From the IMG/VR virus record IMGVR_UViG_3300045988_108697: a stretch of 17,542 nt of DNA; one strand, written 5' to 3'. The position numbers were made by a program, and so were the translations under genes. The notes beneath the pieces are model-generated. The model did not search any database and had not been told where the DNA came from. It saw nothing but the letters and a program-made list of their open reading frames with translations. This DNA comes from a virus. Of the stretch, positions 1 through 17,542 are shown piece by piece. How positions within the stretch are numbered: the first letter of the stretch is position 1; each line of letters starts with the position of its first letter.

Positions 1-119
1 AGAAGATGACTAGGCGAGTGGCATGGAGCCTTGAAGATATAGAAAAAGCCTCGGACTTCTTTCATGTGAAGCCCGAGGCGTTGGTAGCGGGGCATGGATT
101 TGAACCATGGACCTCTGGG
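1..119. repeat. Direct terminal repeat, copy 1 (exact match to 17424-17542)
   Basis: Bases 1-119 (agaagatgactagg...gaaccatggacctctggg) recur identically as the last 119 bases. The unit length is 17,423 bp. One ORF reads continuously across the junction. Confidence 0.95.
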
Positions 120-14258: not shown

Positions 14259-14560
14259 GCCTGTGCCTCTTCCAGCAGACTGGCAAGAGCGGGGTCGATT
14301 TCCTGCCTTGACTGAAACTCGGTTTTCAATTCCTGGTACCACGCCAAGAGCTGGGCCATGACACGGCTCGTGTCGCGTCCTTTGACGTTCAGCGCGTCGA
14401 AATTGCGGGCAATGTTGATCATGGTCTTGCACACGTACTTGGCGTTAGGGTCAAGCTGCCTGTCGCCCACGAAACTCTCGATAAGCTCCTTGGTGGCGCG
14501 TTCCTGCAAGCCCTCGTTGGGACCATAATAATCATTGAAACCGTCCAAGGTCATTTGCAT
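14255..14560 (-). CDS. terS: Terminase small subunit candidate (P27-like size, 101 aa)
   Basis: It is immediately upstream of terL and translationally coupled to it. Strong SD AAGGAGG. It follows an HNH gene and an AT-rich spacer, as in HNH-dependent cos phages. Confidence 0.65.
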   Translation of the reverse strand: MQMTLDGFNDYYGPNEGLQERATKELIESFVGDRQLDPNAKYVCKTMINIARNFDALNVKGRDTSRVMAQLLAWYQELKTEFQSRQEIDPALASLLEEAQA

Positions 14561-14689
14561 TTTTCCAACCTCCTTAATAGCTGGTTTTCGTTGGTATTCC
14601 GCCGTTTTTCTGAATTTTTTTATCCGGTTCGAGAGAGTGAAAAAGTGGGCGCGGGGTCTTTTGGCCGGCCGTTCGCTTAAAAAACAGGT
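14561..14689. promoter_or_regulatory. AT-rich intergenic region; candidate cos/terminase recognition site (also carries the terS SD)
   Basis: This is the most AT-rich intergenic segment of the late operon. Minus-strand A-tracts are ggataaaaaaattcagaaaaacgg and ctgttttttaagcg. It also has a GGCCGGCC palindrome and a GC block gaccccgcgccc, and it sits between HNH and terS. Confidence 0.4.
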
Positions 14690-15415
14690 TCACCATTCCG
14701 GCCTTGAAGCCACAGTGACGCGATCACTGCGAAGCCCAAGGCGTGCGAGCGTGGCCCGGCGTTCACGTTGCCTTGCGTCCACCAAAGCTTGTGAGATGTG
14801 CAAGCCGTACCATTGGCGCACCAACCGCTTGGCCTGCTCGGTCTCGGCCCGCTCCCACTCCACCTCGAAGCCGGGATCTATCACCCGCACGTCGTAGTCA
14901 AGGCTTATCCACTCGTCAAGCATCCTAGGGTGTCGCTTGCTGCTTGGCATGGTGCGGATCATCCACACGTCAATAGGCTCCTGCGTGATGGCGAACTGGC
15001 GATAGGCTGCGGACCACGCCATGGCAACCGCCCGCCGCTGCGCCATGCTGGGCGACTCCGGTAGGCGCATGGCCCGGGCCAACGCCGGCCACGACACAAC
15101 CGGGTCGCCTTGCTGCCTGTGAGCCTCCACCCATTCCACGGCCTCACGGTCGCAGGAACCGGGCGGCGTGACCACGATATGCAAGCGCGCCCCATAACCG
15201 TAAAGCACGCGGTCCTGGCGGCTGGCGTTGCAATGCTTGCACGCGCGTCGGATGTTCGCCACGGTGTCCATGCCGCCATGCGCGTAAGGCACTATGTGGT
15301 CGTCTTCCTCGCCCACACCGGTGCAACCCGGCAGCCTGAGCCAACAAGCGTTGCCCCACGTCTCGATCACCTTGGCCCGCACAAGCGGGTCGATGGTCTG
15401 CCTGCGCGCCATCAC
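14690..15415 (-). CDS. HNH endonuclease fused to a roughly 165-aa C-terminal domain with a degenerate P-loop-like motif (241 aa)
   Basis: HNH motif: CWLRLPGC...DHIVPYAHGGMDTVANIRRACKHCN. Then ARLHIVVTPPGSCDRE (Walker-A-like but lacking GK[ST]) and later DVWMIRT / DVRVIDPG strands. Start is GTG 15415 or ATG 15412, overlapping the upstream stop. Confidence 0.85.
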   Translation of the reverse strand: MMARRQTIDPLVRAKVIETWGNACWLRLPGCTGVGEEDDHIVPYAHGGMDTVANIRRACKHCNASRQDRVLYGYGARLHIVVTPPGSCDREAVEWVEAHRQQGDPVVSWPALARAMRLPESPSMAQRRAVAMAWSAAYRQFAITQEPIDVWMIRTMPSSKRHPRMLDEWISLDYDVRVIDPGFEVEWERAETEQAKRLVRQWYGLHISQALVDARQRERRATLARLGLRSDRVTVASRPEW

Positions 15416-15606
15416 CTGCCACGCTTCCTAGCCCGCACCCACATGTCGAGATCGGCCAGCTCATACAAGCACGGGGAGTTGATGGCGTCGCTCGCCTTAA
15501 ACCATTCCGGCCCGCGATTATCGGCCCTCATACGCTCCATCGTCCTAGGGGAGACGCCAAGATAGATAGCAGCCTGTTCAGTGGTCAGTTTCGCGCGCGG
15601 GTTCAC
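15412..15606 (-). CDS. Excisionase/MerR-family HTH DNA-binding protein (64 aa from GTG 15606; the track gives TTG 15621)
   Basis: LTTEQAAIYLGVSPRTMERMRADNRGPEW is a typical Xis/AlpA-type HTH. GTG 15606 forms a GTGA overlap with the upstream stop. Confidence 0.7.
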   Translation of the reverse strand: MNPRAKLTTEQAAIYLGVSPRTMERMRADNRGPEWFKASDAINSPCLYELADLDMWVRARKRGR

Positions 15607-15944
15607 AGTAGACCAACCCAAGCCTTGAGCGATGTCAACAACTCGGCACGGTCGAACATCTGCGCACTTCCGCGCCTCTCGGGCTTGCCCAAGATGCCGT
15701 CGCTGATAAGCTGCTGCATCACATGGTCGCCGCTAGGGTCGGCCGTCGGCGCGATCTTGTTCAGTCGAAGCATACTGATGGCAAGGGAACGCGCAATAGT
15801 GTCCGTTCCAACAGTGTCATGCTCCAATTGCCTGATATTCCATCGAATGGCGTTCTTGATGTCCTTCGTGCGCTGGGCCTTGCTCTTCGGCACCGTCCTC
15901 TTGGCACGTCGGCGTGTTGGCTTGTAATCAACCGAATAACCCAT
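15603..15944 (-). CDS. Hypothetical protein with a strongly basic N-terminus (113 aa)
   Basis: MGYSVDYKPTRRRAKRTVPKSKAQRTKDIKNAIRW... SD GAGG lies 8 nt upstream. It is the first gene downstream of the DnaA-box repeats. Confidence 0.7.
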   Translation of the reverse strand: MGYSVDYKPTRRRAKRTVPKSKAQRTKDIKNAIRWNIRQLEHDTVGTDTIARSLAISMLRLNKIAPTADPSGDHVMQQLISDGILGKPERRGSAQMFDRAELLTSLKAWVGLL

Positions 15945-15973
15945 GTCTCGAACCTCGTTTCATATTGTGAGTA

Positions 15974-16029
15974 AGTGGGTAAGAACTGTGGATAAGAACT
16001 GTGGATAAGTGGATAAGAATTGTGGATGA
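15974..16029 (-). promoter_or_regulatory. Cluster of five co-oriented DnaA-box-like 9-mers / 13-bp iterons; candidate origin or operator array
   Basis: Plus-strand TGTGGATAA (reverse complement of TTATCCACA) is perfect at 15987-15995 and 16000-16008. Near matches are AGTGGATAA 16008-16016 and TGTGGATGA 16021-16029 (8/9 each) and AGTGGGTAA 15974-15982 (7/9). Repeat unit is GTGGATAAGAACT. Confidence 0.7.
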
Positions 16030-16417
16030 TGTGCCCTTCGGGTGGTGGGGCGTTAGAGCGGGGAACCCAGCTCGGAAAACACAAGATTGCTCAAGTGTTT
16101 TCCGGGTTAGGGTTCGCCATGCAAGGTTGCTTCGTAACGGAGCCGCGCCGTCGCATAGGTCAGCGGCCGAAGCCGCGCGCAAGGTCTCGCCGCACAGCCC
16201 GGCACGCATGCCGGCGATGGTCCCCAGTTGCGCCCGAACAAGACGCCGTGAAGCGATCTGTGTACACCCGCATAGCTCCCCGCTGGGGCCGTGGTAACCG
16301 CCCGGCATTCCGGGCGTGTTTGTAACGCGCTGGGCAAGGCGCGGCCGGGTGCTTTATCACGCCTCACCAGCAACCGACCTTCGGCTGGGTCAAGGGCTAT
16401 GAAGTTATCGGATGCCG
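16030..16417. other. GC-rich non-coding block of about 390 nt with several stable hairpins; candidate structured RNA and/or origin region
   Basis: No ORF has protein-like composition or an RBS. Hairpins: 16073-16104 (10-bp stem CGGAAAACAC/GTGTTTTCCG), 16163-16176 (GCGGC-CGAA-GCCGC; UUCG loop on minus), 16199-16214 (CCGGCA-CGCA-TGCCGG), and 16299-16316 (CGCCCGG-CATT-CCGGGCG followed by TGTTTGT on plus). Confidence 0.45.
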
Positions 16418-16534
16418 TTAGTTGTCGTCGTTGAGGAAATCATCCAGAAGGACGATCGAGAGCACCAGCCCCAGCATGAACAACACGAAGGGGCTGAGCA
16501 GAATCAGAAGAACGAACTTGATGAAACGTTTCAC
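16418..16534 (-). CDS. 38-aa single-TM hydrophobic peptide (below the ORF-track cutoff)
   Basis: GTG 16534 is preceded by SD GAGGAGGA at 6 nt. Translation: (M)KRFIKFVLLILLSPFVLFMLGLVLSIVLLDDFLNDDN, stop TAA 16420-16418. Confidence 0.6.
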   Translation of the reverse strand: MKRFIKFVLLILLSPFVLFMLGLVLSIVLLDDFLNDDN

Positions 16535-16536
16535 GG

Positions 16537-16695
16537 TCAATCCTCCTCGTTGAAGCAGCGGTCGATCTGTTTCTCAAGATCGTCAAGCTCGTAACCGTTG
16601 AACGGGACGCGCACGGTGACTTCTGCCGTCTCAACGATCAGCTCGTAAAAACGCTGACTGCTTTTCCTGTCCACACGTTTGACTGTGACGCTCAT
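16537..16695 (-). CDS. 52-aa hypothetical early protein (below the ORF-track cutoff)
   Basis: ATG 16695 overlaps the upstream stop (ATGA 16692-16695). Translation: MSVTVKRVDRKSSQRFYELIVETAEVTVRVPFNGYELDDLEKQIDRCFNEED. Confidence 0.6.
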   Translation of the reverse strand: MSVTVKRVDRKSSQRFYELIVETAEVTVRVPFNGYELDDLEKQIDRCFNEED

Positions 16696-16928
16696 TCCTG
16701 GGCTCCTTCCCATTCACGACGGGCACGCCTCGCGTGCGTCATCGCCTGGTTGATCGCGCCCTTCATCGCCTGAAGGTCGCCCATGTCCAAGCCATCGAAC
16801 CCGAACGTGCTTCCGGCCACCTTGATGCGGCAGGCGAAGCGGTAGGGATTGCCGCCGGTGCATTCCGACGGGTCGATGTCCTGCACCTGGAAGTAATTGC
16901 TGGTGCATTCCGGATTGAAAACGCTCAT
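16692..16928 (-). CDS. Hypothetical early protein (78 aa)
   Basis: ATG 16928 overlaps the stop of the HTH gene (ATGA 16925-16928). Composition is protein-like. No motif recognised. Confidence 0.65.
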   Translation of the reverse strand: MSVFNPECTSNYFQVQDIDPSECTGGNPYRFACRIKVAGSTFGFDGLDMGDLQAMKGAINQAMTHARRARREWEGAQE

Positions 16929-17239
16929 TTCACCTCCAACGGAGCTCGCCCAAGGAGCACATCGGCGCTGACATGCAAGAGTTCGGCAAGCTCGTTTATC
17001 TCATTCACACTGAAAGCGATTCGGCCAGTGCATTTCTGCGAGACCGTGGACCGTGCGCAGTGCAATGTTTCAGCGACTTCCGCCTGTGTCAGGCCATTGA
17101 GCCCCATAAGGCGTTTGACCTTTTCACCTACAGTTGGTAAATCTATTAAAATGTTTGTCACACTTACATCTAACCACGAATGTAGTTGGGCCTGCTCGTT
17201 CGGCGTGTCGTGTTCTATCTTTTTGTTAGTTTCGGTCAT
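16925..17239 (-). CDS. Cro/C1-type HTH protein heading the lytic-strand operon (cro-like, 104 aa)
   Basis: VGEKVKRLMGLNGLTQAEVAETLHCARSTVSQKCTGRIAFSVNEINELAELL is an XRE-family HTH. It is divergent from the repressor candidate. Confidence 0.85.
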   Translation of the reverse strand: MTETNKKIEHDTPNEQAQLHSWLDVSVTNILIDLPTVGEKVKRLMGLNGLTQAEVAETLHCARSTVSQKCTGRIAFSVNEINELAELLHVSADVLLGRAPLEVK

Positions 17240-17263
17240 AGCACATAAGTTTACTTATGTGCT
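17240..17263. promoter_or_regulatory. Perfect 11-2-11 palindrome filling the entire gap between the divergent start codons; candidate operator with overlapping promoters
   Basis: AGCACATAAGT-TT-ACTTATGTGCT. Adding the flanking CAT/ATG start codons extends the symmetry to 14-2-14 (17237-17266). Confidence 0.8.
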
Positions 17264-17542
17264 ATGACAACAGCAACAATCAGCCCTAAGGTCGCAGCTC
17301 AGGCCGAATCTGTCAGTTTGCAGGATATAGTCACGCGAAATATGAAAGTGGCCATGACTCTTCGCAATGTCAAGCAAAAGGATCTGGCGAACGCTCTTGG
17401 CGTCGATAGGTCTTCGATTTCACAGAAGATGACTAGGCGAGTGGCATGGAGCCTTGAAGATATAGAAAAAGCCTCGGACTTCTTTCATGTGAAGCCCGAG
17501 GCGTTGGTAGCGGGGCATGGATTTGAACCATGGACCTCTGGG
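17264..17542 (+). CDS. Cro/C1-type HTH repressor candidate, 5' part (residues 1-93). It runs off the window end and continues at 120-188.
   Basis: ATG at 17264. Translation: MTTATISPKVAAQAESVSLQDIVTRNMKVAMTLRNVKQKDLANALGVDRSSISQKMTRRVAWSLEDIEKASDFFHVKPEALVAGHGFEPWTSG. HTH signature is QKDLANALGVDRSSISQKM. It is co-oriented with int and divergent from the lytic operon. It is absent from the ORF track because no stop occurs before the window end. Confidence 0.85.
   Translation, partial: MTTATISPKVAAQAESVSLQDIVTRNMKVAMTLRNVKQKDLANALGVDRSSISQKMTRRVAWSLEDIEKASDFFHVKPEALVAGHGFEPWTSG
17424..17542. repeat. Direct terminal repeat, copy 2 (exact match to 1-119)
   Basis: Same 119-nt string as the window start. 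Position 17542 corresponds to position 119. Confidence 0.95.

What the first reader, a model, noticed from the sequence alone, without database searches (positions are those of the whole stretch)
15974..16029. Five co-oriented DnaA boxes in a phage with no recognisable replication gene
- Within 56 bp there are two perfect reverse-complement copies of the DnaA box TTATCCACA (15987-15995 and 16000-16008). There are also three copies at 7-8/9 matches, arranged as 13-bp iterons (GTGGATAAGAACT).
- The local sequence is markedly less GC-rich than the rest of the genome.
- Every ORF of meaningful size is accounted for by lysogeny, packaging, morphogenesis or lysis functions. I see no helicase, primase, polymerase or Rep-like protein.
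- The remaining unknown ORFs are 38-113 aa.
- The simplest reading is an origin that recruits host DnaA directly, so the phage would depend fully on the host initiator.
- Alternatives: iterons for the adjacent basic 113-aa protein, or DnaA-dependent control of the promoter of the late operon that starts 30 nt downstream.
Basis: partly seen in the sequence, partly recalled or inferred. Interest (0 to 1): 0.7.

Follow-up and report, generated by a model that had tools for sequence, protein, structure and literature searches.

The report
DnaA-box array beside a new structured element
A very small, very common Bifidobacterium gut phage with no replication genes carries a real cluster of binding sites for the host replication initiator DnaA, but sister phages lack the cluster, so it is an optional add-on placed next to a previously undescribed, conserved ~380-nt structured element that is the better candidate for the shared core function.

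Summary
At 15966-16029 there are two perfect DnaA boxes, two with one mismatch and two with two mismatches. All are co-oriented, with 13- and 8-nt spacing, and this far exceeds chance.

The window is a complete circular 17,423-bp genome of the tRNA-Met-integrating Bifidobacterium mini-prophage group (Bb423phi2/689b-1). Pfam and PHROGs find no initiator, helicase, primase or polymerase.

Across 101 related loci:
- About half carry boxes at exactly this site, in at least three lineages. One lineage uses TTTTCCACA and TTGTCCAC variants, which argues for selection on DnaA binding.
- About ten spacer classes in otherwise similar phages (same element, p113 and downstream genes; early small genes vary) have none. 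The array therefore cannot be the family's essential origin.

The array lies in a hypervariable, G-poor leader. On one side is the ribosome-binding site of a winged-helix-like 113-aa protein. On the other is a conserved ~380-nt structured RNA (or single-stranded DNA) element with strong covariation and no Rfam match.

My best reading (confidence 0.35) is that the array is an accessory site for recruiting host DnaA at the phage's replication-start region. The main rival (0.3) is a DnaA roadblock gating transcription into the late operon. The idea that the boxes are iterons for the 113-aa protein is rejected.

The parts
15966..16029 (-). Array of six co-oriented DnaA boxes. Read on the - strand: TCATCCACA-ATTC-TTATCCAC|TTATCCACA-GTTC-TTATCCACA-GTTC-TTACCCAC|TTACTCACA. 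Two are perfect, two have 1 mismatch and two have 2 mismatches.
   Evidence: Copy number varies from 3 to 6 among near-identical relatives, in steps of 8 or 13 nt.
15945..15965 (-). Ribosome-binding region of the 113-aa gene (ATATGAAACGAGGTTCGAGAC before the ATG). Together with the weak boxes it forms a 41% GC stretch.
16034..16410 (-). Conserved structured non-coding element of about 380 nt, acting as RNA or as single-stranded DNA of this strand. It ends in the near-invariant GGTTCCCCGCTCTAAC..CACCA..CCGAAGG, about 10 nt before the first box.
   Evidence: Alignments A1 and A3. There are 61 pairs, 33 with compensatory changes. 94.8% of cells are paired, against 44-46% in the slid controls. The covariation score is 0.392 against 0.07-0.085, and 0 of 500 shuffles reach the observed value. 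G-U cells number 145 and A-C cells 11. No Rfam family matches.
15603..15944 (-). p113, the first gene after the array. It has a basic disordered N-terminus followed by a winged-helix-like fold, and belongs to a small lineage-specific family.
15412..15621 (-). 69-aa HTH_17 / excisionase-like DNA-binding protein.
   Evidence: phrog_66, phrog_539; PF12728, E = 2.8e-7.
16418..17239 (-). Early operon upstream of the element: a Cro-like HTH protein (16925-17239), a 78-aa ORF (16692-16928), a 58-aa ORF (16537-16713) and a 40-aa hydrophobic ORF (16418-16540). None resembles a replication protein.

Best explanation
The array is an authentic cluster of binding sites for host (Bifidobacterium) DnaA. Some lineages of this mini-phage family acquired and kept it in the variable leader between a conserved ~380-nt structured element and the first downstream gene.

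I propose that this largest non-coding region of the genome (15945-16417) is where phage replication starts. The conserved structured element would supply the family-wide function. It could act as a transcript that primes or activates replication, or as a folded single-strand initiation signal. DnaA bound to the boxes would be an accessory that helps open the adjacent, relatively AT-rich 45 bp and load the host helicase. The closest parallel is the DnaA box next to ColE1/pBR322-type and iteron-type plasmid origins (from my own knowledge), not a self-sufficient oriC.

What is shown:
- the boxes, their statistics and their recurrence with DnaA-type variants;
- their absence from sister clades;
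- the absence of any recognisable initiator;
- the structured element and the strand on which it folds.

What is inferred:
- DnaA binding;
- that the origin lies here;
- any role of the structured element in replication.
For: - Box statistics.
- Same-site recurrence in the window clade (3-6 boxes), in L062, in the L163 and L099 classes, and in the divergent L124. L124 reads TTTTCCACA-ATAG-TTGTCCAC-TTATCCAC-TTATCCACA. These position-3 variants are among the box types listed for B. longum oriC (PMC2430713).
- The doublet TTATCCACTTATCCACA recurs in about 40 unrelated viral contigs. Several of these sit among further boxes next to AT-rich or TAA/TAG-repeat DNA, that is, in origin-like settings.
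- No initiator, helicase, primase or polymerase appears by Pfam or PHROGs in the window or in the early genes of relatives.
- The closest isolated phages, the 14-18 kb actinophages, also lack an annotated initiator, helicase or primase.
- The region is the largest non-coding stretch and occupies the position of a replication module.
- The flank towards p113 is 41% GC, within the lowest 0.6% of 40-bp windows.
- Many ~16-17 kb contigs, and this circular one, suggest that the element exists free of the host chromosome in gut samples.
Against: - 46 of 101 related loci, in about ten spacer classes, have no box, although they share the structured element, p113 and the downstream genes (early small genes vary). 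The array is therefore dispensable.
- The L160/L014 class shows decayed boxes.
- There is no DnaA-trio, and the AT-rich flank also contains the ribosome-binding site and start codon.
- Box spacing is 4 bp or an overlap of 1, not the 2-3 bp needed by E. coli DnaA dimers.
- Six isolated mini-actinophages have no box cluster.
- No promoter was found for the structured element, and its 3' tail is C-rich, which does not favour a stable R-loop (my inference).
- Bb423phi2 showed no excision or amplification after mitomycin C (PMC6109161).
- Nothing here tests replication directly.
Confidence: 0.35

Rival explanations
1. Transcriptional gate. DnaA bound to the array in the transcribed leader blocks or modulates RNA polymerase reading from the early operon and the structured element into p113 and the roughly 15-kb packaging, morphogenesis and lysis operon. 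Late expression would then be coupled to host replication status. It could also be coupled to phage copy number, because DnaA is titrated away as boxes multiply.
For: - The array lies 29 nt upstream of the p113 start codon, inside a leader with no detectable promoter of its own.
- It follows a hairpin that looks like an intrinsic terminator in most clades.
- All genes from the Cro-like gene to the lysin are co-oriented.
- The spacer is the hypervariable part of the region, as regulatory sites often are.
- DnaA acting as a repressor and as an elongation roadblock is documented in E. coli (PMC11317965).
- Phages with integration-dependent immunity lack SOS control (PMC6109161), so another host signal would be useful to them.
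Against: - No transcription start or terminator data are available.
- Half of the relatives manage without boxes.
- This reading does not explain how the phage replicates.
- The spacing is non-optimal by the E. coli standard.
Confidence: 0.3
2. One reading: a self-sufficient origin that needs only DnaA, a miniature oriC on which the phage depends completely.
For: - No phage initiator is recognisable.
- There are multiple co-oriented boxes.
- The flank is relatively AT-rich.
Against: - The array is absent from many sister phages with the same structured element, p113 and downstream genes.
- There is no DnaA-trio.
- Decayed boxes occur in the L160 class.
- Copy number varies from 3 to 6 among near-identical genomes.
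Confidence: 0.08
3. The repeats are not DnaA sites. Either they are a G-poor, unstructured RNA leader generated by slippage that matches the DnaA consensus by coincidence, or they are binding sites for a phage protein such as p113, the 69-aa HTH protein or the Cro-like protein.
For: - Spacers of all classes are A/C-rich and G-poor (A 303, C 251, T 182, G 134).
- They carry other short tandem repeats, for example three 13-nt CATCAATC units in L037.
- TTATCCACA contains no G, so co-orientation could follow from an RNA-level constraint (inference).
Against: - A chance match of a G-free 9-mer to the consensus across all spacers is roughly 0.04 (my estimate).
- L124 keeps the G-containing TTGTCCAC variant.
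- p113 identity does not track the boxes: box-free L018/L020 are 73-74% identical to the window protein, while box-bearing L062, L163, L099 and L124 are 66, 58, 55 and 39%.
- The operator palindrome at 17235-17268 is unrelated in sequence.
Confidence: 0.17
4. DnaA sink. As the phage genome amplifies, hundreds of box arrays sequester host DnaA and shut down host chromosome initiation, in the manner of datA or the B. subtilis DnaA-box clusters.
For: - It is a cluster of strong boxes on a multicopy element.
- Stable DnaA binding to box clusters outside oriC is known in B. subtilis (PMC2533591, title and abstract as listed).
Against: - The fixed position, immediately upstream of p113 in every box-bearing lineage, is not required for a sink.
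- There is no direct evidence.
Confidence: 0.05

Closest known systems
Accessory DnaA boxes at plasmid and phage origins (pBR322/ColE1 DnaA box downstream of the RNA II-primed origin; P1 oriR, pSC101, F, RK2). This comparison rests on my own knowledge.
   Same: - The boxes match the host consensus on a mobile replicon.
- They sit beside the presumed start region.
- They are non-essential or auxiliary and variable among relatives.
- In the ColE1 case they lie just downstream of a long structured transcript on a replicon that encodes no initiator.
   Different: - Here there are 4-6 tandem co-oriented boxes rather than 1-2.
- No priming transcript, RNase H site or primosome assembly site has been shown.
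- The element is a tailed temperate phage, not a plasmid.
- The array lies in the 5' leader of a gene.
Chromosomal oriC basal unwinding system (DnaA boxes, GC cluster, DnaA-trios, AT-rich unwinding element). This comparison rests on my own knowledge.
   Same: - Co-oriented consensus boxes.
- A lower-GC flank on the 3' side of the TTATCCACA orientation.
   Different: - There are no DnaA-trios anywhere in the genome.
- The flank is only 41% GC and carries a ribosome-binding site.
- The array is not conserved in sister phages.
DnaA as a transcription factor and elongation roadblock (E. coli regulon, PMC11317965; lambda pR from my own knowledge)
   Same: Boxes lie within or next to a transcribed leader, immediately upstream of a gene.
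   Different: - E. coli sites are pairs spaced 2-3 bp apart. Here the spacing is 4 bp or an overlap of 1, in an array of six.
- No promoter has been mapped.
tRNA-Met-integrating ~18-kb Bifidobacterium prophages Bb423phi2, 689b-1 and Bl-1 (Mavrich et al. 2018, PMC6109161)
   Same: - Same att core.
- Same size class.
- Same repressor-attP-integrase layout with an ssrA-like tail.
- Same structural genes.
   Different: In the passages I searched for the term 'replication' and for these prophages, that paper describes neither the box array nor the structured element, and it does not discuss how these small prophages replicate.
Mini actinophages of 14-18 kb (Gordonia Emperor, SallySpecial, Jeanie and GRU3; Arthrobacter Atraxa; Rhodococcus RRH1)
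   Same: - They are the closest terminase relatives.
- They share the capsid-protease fusion and an HNH gene at the genome end.
- None has an annotated initiator, helicase or primase; Jeanie and GRU3 carry a gene annotated as a DNA polymerase III / polymerase exonuclease subunit.
- They have a non-coding gap of roughly 180-780 nt within the last 1-2 kb before the HNH/right end.
   Different: - They have no DnaA-box cluster.
- Similarity of their gaps to the Bifidobacterium element is limited to short end motifs seen by eye.

Membership tests
DnaA-box cluster (host DnaA binding site) | Several 9-mers matching TTATCCACA or accepted variants, clustered beyond chance | tested here: met
   There are 2 perfect boxes, 2 with 1 mismatch and 2 with 2 mismatches within 64 bp. 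0 of 200 shuffles and 0 of 1000 simulations reach the observed values. TTATCCACA is type A among the box types listed for B. longum oriC.
DnaA-box cluster (host DnaA binding site) | Conservation of box identity across diverged relatives | tested here: met
   Boxes occur at the same site in at least three lineages. L124 uses the variants TTTTCCACA and TTGTCCAC. They are absent from other lineages.
DnaA-box cluster (host DnaA binding site) | Pair spacing of 2-3 bp, as required by E. coli DnaA dimers | tested here: not met
   The spacing is 4 bp or an overlap of 1 bp (compared). The requirement of Bifidobacterium DnaA is unknown.
DnaA-box cluster (host DnaA binding site) | Physical binding by DnaA | not testable with these tools
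   This needs EMSA, footprinting or ChIP.
oriC-type DnaA-only origin | DnaA-trio repeats and an AT-rich unwinding element next to the boxes | tested here: not met
   No run of three or more trio-like triplets occurs anywhere in the genome. The flank is 41% GC and contains the ribosome-binding site and ATG.
oriC-type DnaA-only origin | Essential, and therefore conserved in related replicons | tested here: not met
   46 of 101 related loci have no box, and the L160 class shows decayed boxes.
Iteron origin with a cognate element-encoded initiator | An encoded Rep-type initiator | tested here: not met
   No Rep, helicase, primase or polymerase is found by Pfam or PHROGs. p113 has only non-significant winged-helix matches.
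Iteron origin with a cognate element-encoded initiator | Iteron sequence co-varies with the adjacent DNA-binding protein | tested here: not met
   p113 identity does not follow box presence.
ColE1-type RNA-primed origin | A long, conserved, structured transcript ending at the start site, no element-encoded initiator, and a DnaA box downstream | tested here: inconclusive
   A structured element with strand-specific G-U pairs, the absence of an initiator and downstream boxes are all present. However, no promoter was found, the element could fold as single-stranded DNA instead, and its tail is C-rich.
ColE1-type RNA-primed origin | RNase H processing and Pol I extension of the transcript | not testable with these tools
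   This is biochemistry only.
Known RNA families (Rfam 15) | A match above the gathering score | tested here: not met
   The best hits are far below threshold, for example asX2 at 22.7 bits against a gathering score of 70.
Bb423phi2/689b-1 group of Bifidobacterium prophages | tRNA-Met att core, a size of about 17-18 kb, and a repressor gene crossing attP with an ssrA-like tail next to the integrase | tested here: met
   The att core TGGTAGCGGGGCATGGATTTGAACCATGGACCTCTGGG lies at window 82-119 (compared). The unit genome is 17,423 bp. The repressor ORF runs from 17264 across the junction to 188 and ends in LILAA. This was read by hand; my scripted translation started at the wrong base.

The most novel reading that the evidence does not exclude
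These very common gut phages, and perhaps the mini-actinophages in general, may be replicons with no initiator protein. Replication would start at the conserved ~380-nt structured element. That element would act either as an RNA II-like primer or activator transcript, or as a folded single-strand initiation signal. Host DnaA loaded on the adjacent boxes would be an optional helicase-loading aid in some lineages. This would be a mode of replication not described for tailed phages.
Probability: 0.15. Interest if true: 0.85.

Novelty: new variant of a known kind. Interest (0 to 1): 0.6.

Why it matters
Tailed phages of 14-18 kb carry no recognisable replication initiator, helicase or primase, and I found no account of how they copy their DNA. 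This group is also among the most prevalent prophages of human-gut Bifidobacterium. Single p113 sequences occur on 500 to more than 1000 contigs from B. adolescentis, B. longum and B. catenulatum.

A defined 470-bp non-coding region with two parts now gives a concrete target for experiments:
- a clade-specific array of host DnaA sites;
- a family-wide structured element with excellent covariation and no known family.

Natural variants with 0, 1-2, 3, 4, 5 and 6 boxes already exist and form a ready-made allelic series.

If DnaA acts here, it links phage development to the host replication cycle, either through initiation or through gating of late genes. These phages use integration-dependent immunity and, by analogy with mycobacteriophages of that type, may not respond to SOS induction, so such a link would matter. 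The structured element is a candidate new RNA class whatever the boxes do.

Tried and rejected
- **Rfam.** The whole window at E <= 1 and the region at E <= 10 gave nothing credible.
- **Similarity searches with the non-coding region.** blastn against 50,697 phage records found no match. nhmmer with the element profile against six mini-actinophages found nothing.
- **Wider Gordonia-type alignment.** Only four distinct sequences could be collected. No covariation test was possible, so homology remains a lead seen by eye. A fuzzy-regex scan was too permissive to be useful.
- **p113 function.** There are no Pfam or PHROG hits. The AlphaFold model is good (pLDDT 82.5), but Foldseek gives only non-significant winged-helix matches: PDB best E = 0.16 and BFVD best E = 0.06. 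A profile search of 1.8 billion representatives found only 30 relatives, all of the same small family.
- **Iterons of p113.** Rejected.
- **Early small proteins of relatives as cryptic initiators.** No hits.
- **Host oriC.** My query was M. tuberculosis DnaA recalled from memory. It returned only Mycobacterium proteins, so I could not compare box spacing in the host origin and rely on PMC2430713 instead.
- **DnaA-box clusters in isolated mini-phages.** None found.
- **Promoter scan.** No promoter for the element or for p113.
- **GC skew.** Uninformative, because almost all genes share one strand.

Full report
**What the window is.** The first 119 nt equal the last 119 nt, so this is a circular assembly of a 17,423-bp genome.

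Gene content:
- tyrosine integrase (+ strand, 205-1035);
- on the - strand, an amidase endolysin, tail proteins, tape measure, major tail protein, a capsid-protease fusion, portal and large terminase;
- an HNH protein with a small-terminase-like C-terminus;
- a 69-aa HTH_17/excisionase-like protein;
- a 113-aa protein of unknown family (p113);
- further upstream, three small ORFs and a Cro-like HTH protein.

The att core TGGTAGCGGGGCATGGATTTGAACCATGGACCTCTGGG (window 82-119) and the layout identify it as a member of the tRNA-Met-integrating ~18-kb Bifidobacterium prophages Bb423phi2/689b-1/Bl-1 (PMC6109161). p113 sequences of the window type are recorded from B. adolescentis, B. longum and B. 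catenulatum, some on 500 to more than 1000 contigs. The nearest isolated phages by terminase are the 14-18 kb actinophages of Gordonia, Arthrobacter and Rhodococcus.

**The observation.** It is correct. On the - strand the sequence reads TCATCCACA-ATTC-TTATCCAC|TTATCCACA-GTTC-TTATCCACA-GTTC-TTACCCAC|TTACTCACA, spanning 16029 down to 15966. That makes two perfect boxes, two with one mismatch and two with two mismatches. All are co-oriented, with start-to-start spacing of 13 or 8 nt.
- The window holds 9 hits at one mismatch or fewer, against 1.6 expected.
- Four same-strand hits fall within 60 bp. In 1000 simulated genomes the maximum was 2, reached twice.
- The region has low GC for this genome, but not the lowest.

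**No replication gene.** Pfam-A and PHROGs give no initiator, helicase, primase or polymerase for any large ORF or any ORF of the early region. Three small ORFs inside the structural module and the + strand repressor were not scanned. The same is true of the alternative early genes of relatives. p113 belongs to a tiny lineage-specific family of 30 representatives among 1.8 billion. Its AlphaFold model (pLDDT 82.5) has a disordered basic N-terminus and a winged-helix-like body. The structural matches are non-significant: PDB best E = 0.16 (ArsR/CadC, Cdt1 and ORC winged helices) and BFVD best E = 0.06 (TorI/Xis/AlpA/PrtN-like).

**What lies next to the array.** Immediately upstream in the direction of transcription (window about 16410 down to 16034, - strand) is a ~380-nt element. 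It is conserved at the nucleotide level in relatives whose p113 is only 26-75% identical, and its reading frames are broken by indels.

On 24 diverse sequences, RNAalifold predicts 61 pairs, of which 33 carry compensatory double changes. The control counts are:
- 94.8% of cells paired, against 44-46% when partners are slid by 1-3 columns;
- covariation score 0.392, against 0.07-0.085;
- 0 of 500 shuffles reach the observed values.

G-U cells outnumber A-C cells 145 to 11, so the - strand is the one that folds. This fits an RNA made in the same direction as the flanking genes. It would also fit folded single-stranded DNA of that strand. Rfam has no match.

The element ends with a variable hairpin, which in most clades has a GC stem followed by a U tract. 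This hairpin is nested in a conserved helix and followed by the near-invariant GGTTCCCCGCTCTAAC..CACCA..CCGAAGG. The DnaA boxes begin about 10 nt later and end 21 nt before the p113 ATG.

**Comparative test of the array.** In 101 related loci I extracted the spacer between the element's end and the p113 start.

Box-bearing classes:
- the window clade, with 3, 4, 5 or 6 boxes differing by 8- or 13-nt units, as expected from slippage;
- L062, with two perfect boxes and one weak one;
- the L163 class, with 2-3 boxes;
- the L099/L059 class, with 1-2 boxes;
- the divergent L124, which reads TTTTCCACA-ATAG-TTGTCCAC-TTATCCAC-TTATCCACA.

The position-3 variants in L124 are among the box types listed for B. 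longum oriC (PMC2430713). One of them contains a G in an otherwise G-poor leader. I take this as the best evidence that DnaA-box identity, and not merely a repeat, is under selection.

Against that, 46 loci in about ten spacer classes have no box here. They have no cluster of boxes within the roughly 5-13 kb of each genome held as a locus either, although they share the structured element, p113 and the downstream genes; their small early genes vary. The L160/L014 class shows decayed boxes (TTACCCAC-TTAACCGCC). The array is therefore beneficial in some lineages but dispensable for the family.

**Rejecting p113 iterons.** Identity to the window's p113 does not follow the boxes. Box-free L018/L020 are 73-74% identical. 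Box-bearing L062, L163, L099 and L124 are 66, 58, 55 and 39% identical. The palindromic operator between the divergent HTH genes (17235-17268) is unrelated in sequence to the boxes.

**Origin features.**
- No DnaA-trio-like run exists anywhere in the genome.
- The 44 bp between the array and the first codons of p113 is 41% GC. This is within the lowest 0.6% of 40-bp windows, but the stretch also holds the ribosome-binding site and the ATG.
- Box spacing is 4 bp or an overlap of 1, whereas E. coli DnaA needs pairs 2-3 bp apart (PMC11317965). The preference of Bifidobacterium DnaA is unknown.
- The overlapping doublet TTATCCACTTATCCACA recurs in about 40 unrelated viral contigs, several of them among further boxes beside strongly AT-rich or TAA/TAG-repeat DNA. 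It is therefore a natural DnaA-site arrangement that phages use in origin-like settings.
- Six isolated mini-actinophages have no box cluster.

**The spacer as RNA.** In all classes the spacer is A/C-rich and G-poor on the sense strand. It often carries other short tandem repeats, for example three 13-nt CATCAATC units in L037. TTATCCACA contains no G, so the strict co-orientation of the boxes may simply reflect a constraint to keep the leader unstructured (inference).

**Interpretation.** I rate the probability that the array binds host DnaA at about 0.8. Its role is not settled.

My best reading (0.35) is an accessory DnaA-recruitment site at the replication-start region, with the conserved structured element as the family-wide component. 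The reasons are:
- this is the largest non-coding region of the genome;
- it sits where replication modules sit in related temperate phages;
- no initiator exists;
- DnaA boxes on mobile replicons usually assist origins.

The closest analogy is the auxiliary DnaA box beside the RNA II-primed ColE1/pBR322 origin (my own knowledge).

The main rival (0.3) is a DnaA roadblock or gate on read-through from the early operon into p113 and the late genes. This reading fits the leader position and the terminator-like hairpin. The two readings are not mutually exclusive.

Lower-ranked readings are:
- no DnaA involvement at all (0.17);
- a DnaA sink (0.05).

**A lead beyond the question.** The non-coding gaps before the HNH gene in Gordonia phages Emperor, SallySpecial and GRU3 share short end motifs with the Bifidobacterium element:
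- CCG.CGATAACCGA-like at the 5' end;
- TAGGGTTCC..GCT...ACCCACC..CCGAA at the 3' end;
- in Emperor, CCTTACGAAGC.

Profile and blast searches do not support homology statistically, and too few sequences exist for a covariation test. This remains only a lead.

**Novelty.** DnaA-box clusters on phages and plasmids are known. Integration-dependent immunity in this group is also known (PMC6109161). I found three things undescribed in the literature searched here:
- the array in a phage free of replication genes;
- its presence or absence across sister lineages;
- the adjacent structured element.

Noticed in passing
window 16034-16410, - strand: A ~380-nt conserved structured non-coding element (RNA, or single-stranded DNA of this strand). 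It has 61 pairs, 33 with compensatory changes, 94.8% of cells paired and 145 G-U cells against 11 A-C cells. It has no Rfam match. It was found in all 101 related Bifidobacterium loci that were retrieved with its own core motif and also carry a recognisable p113 start. This may be more interesting than the boxes themselves.
   Followed up: yes
window 17264-17542 continuing to 1-188; att core at 82-119: The + strand HTH repressor ORF runs across the contig junction and through the tRNA-Met-like attP core, ending in ...SRLSLILAA (an ssrA-like tail). The integrase follows at 205-1035. This is the integration-dependent immunity layout already described for Bb423phi2/689b-1 (PMC6109161). ARAGORN's 'tRNA-Gln' at 69-158 overlaps the att region (core 82-119), which matches the 3' end of the host tRNA-Met gene on the opposite strand, so I take it to be an artefact rather than a phage tRNA gene.
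   Followed up: partly
window 17235-17268: A perfect 16+16-nt palindrome (GTCATAGCACATAAGT / ACTTATGTGCTATGAC) lies between the divergent Cro-like and repressor genes. It is presumably the operator.
   Followed up: no
window 1-119 and 17424-17542: A terminal 119-nt direct repeat shows that the contig is a circular (or concatemeric) assembly. The unit genome is 17,423 bp.
   Followed up: yes
L089:15962-16286, L092:15264-15575, L093:16128-16471: Non-coding gaps upstream of the HNH gene in the isolated Gordonia mini-phages Emperor, SallySpecial and GRU3 share short 5' and 3' motifs with the Bifidobacterium element. They may be a distant homologue, but there is no statistical support yet.
   Followed up: partly
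L094-L157 (for example L114, L125, L135, L139): The overlapping double box TTATCCACTTATCCACA occurs in about 40 unrelated viral contigs. Several lie among further boxes next to AT-rich or TAA/TAG-repeat DNA. It seems to be a recurrent DnaA-site unit of phage origins.
   Followed up: partly
L037:2600-2725, L084, L024, L124 (spacers upstream of p113): Box-free spacers often carry the motif CATCAATC. In L037 it forms three 13-nt repeats, the same period as the DnaA-box array. What binds it, if anything, is unknown.
   Followed up: partly
window 14525-14645: Two of the lowest-GC 40-bp windows (30% GC) lie between the HNH/small-terminase-like gene and the 101-aa ORF next to the large terminase. This is a candidate cos region, by analogy with HNH-associated cos phages.
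   Followed up: no
early regions of L020, L024, L037, L041 compared with window 16418-16928: Relatives carry alternative early cassettes. One is an 85-aa 'VKWTCGxVRCFTDD' protein and the other is the 78-aa 'GNPYRF...GLDMGDLQ' protein. All also have a ~60-aa 'PGLF..SGD' protein. None has a known function. In the classes examined, boxes were seen only with the 78-aa type, although L043 has that type without boxes.
   Followed up: partly
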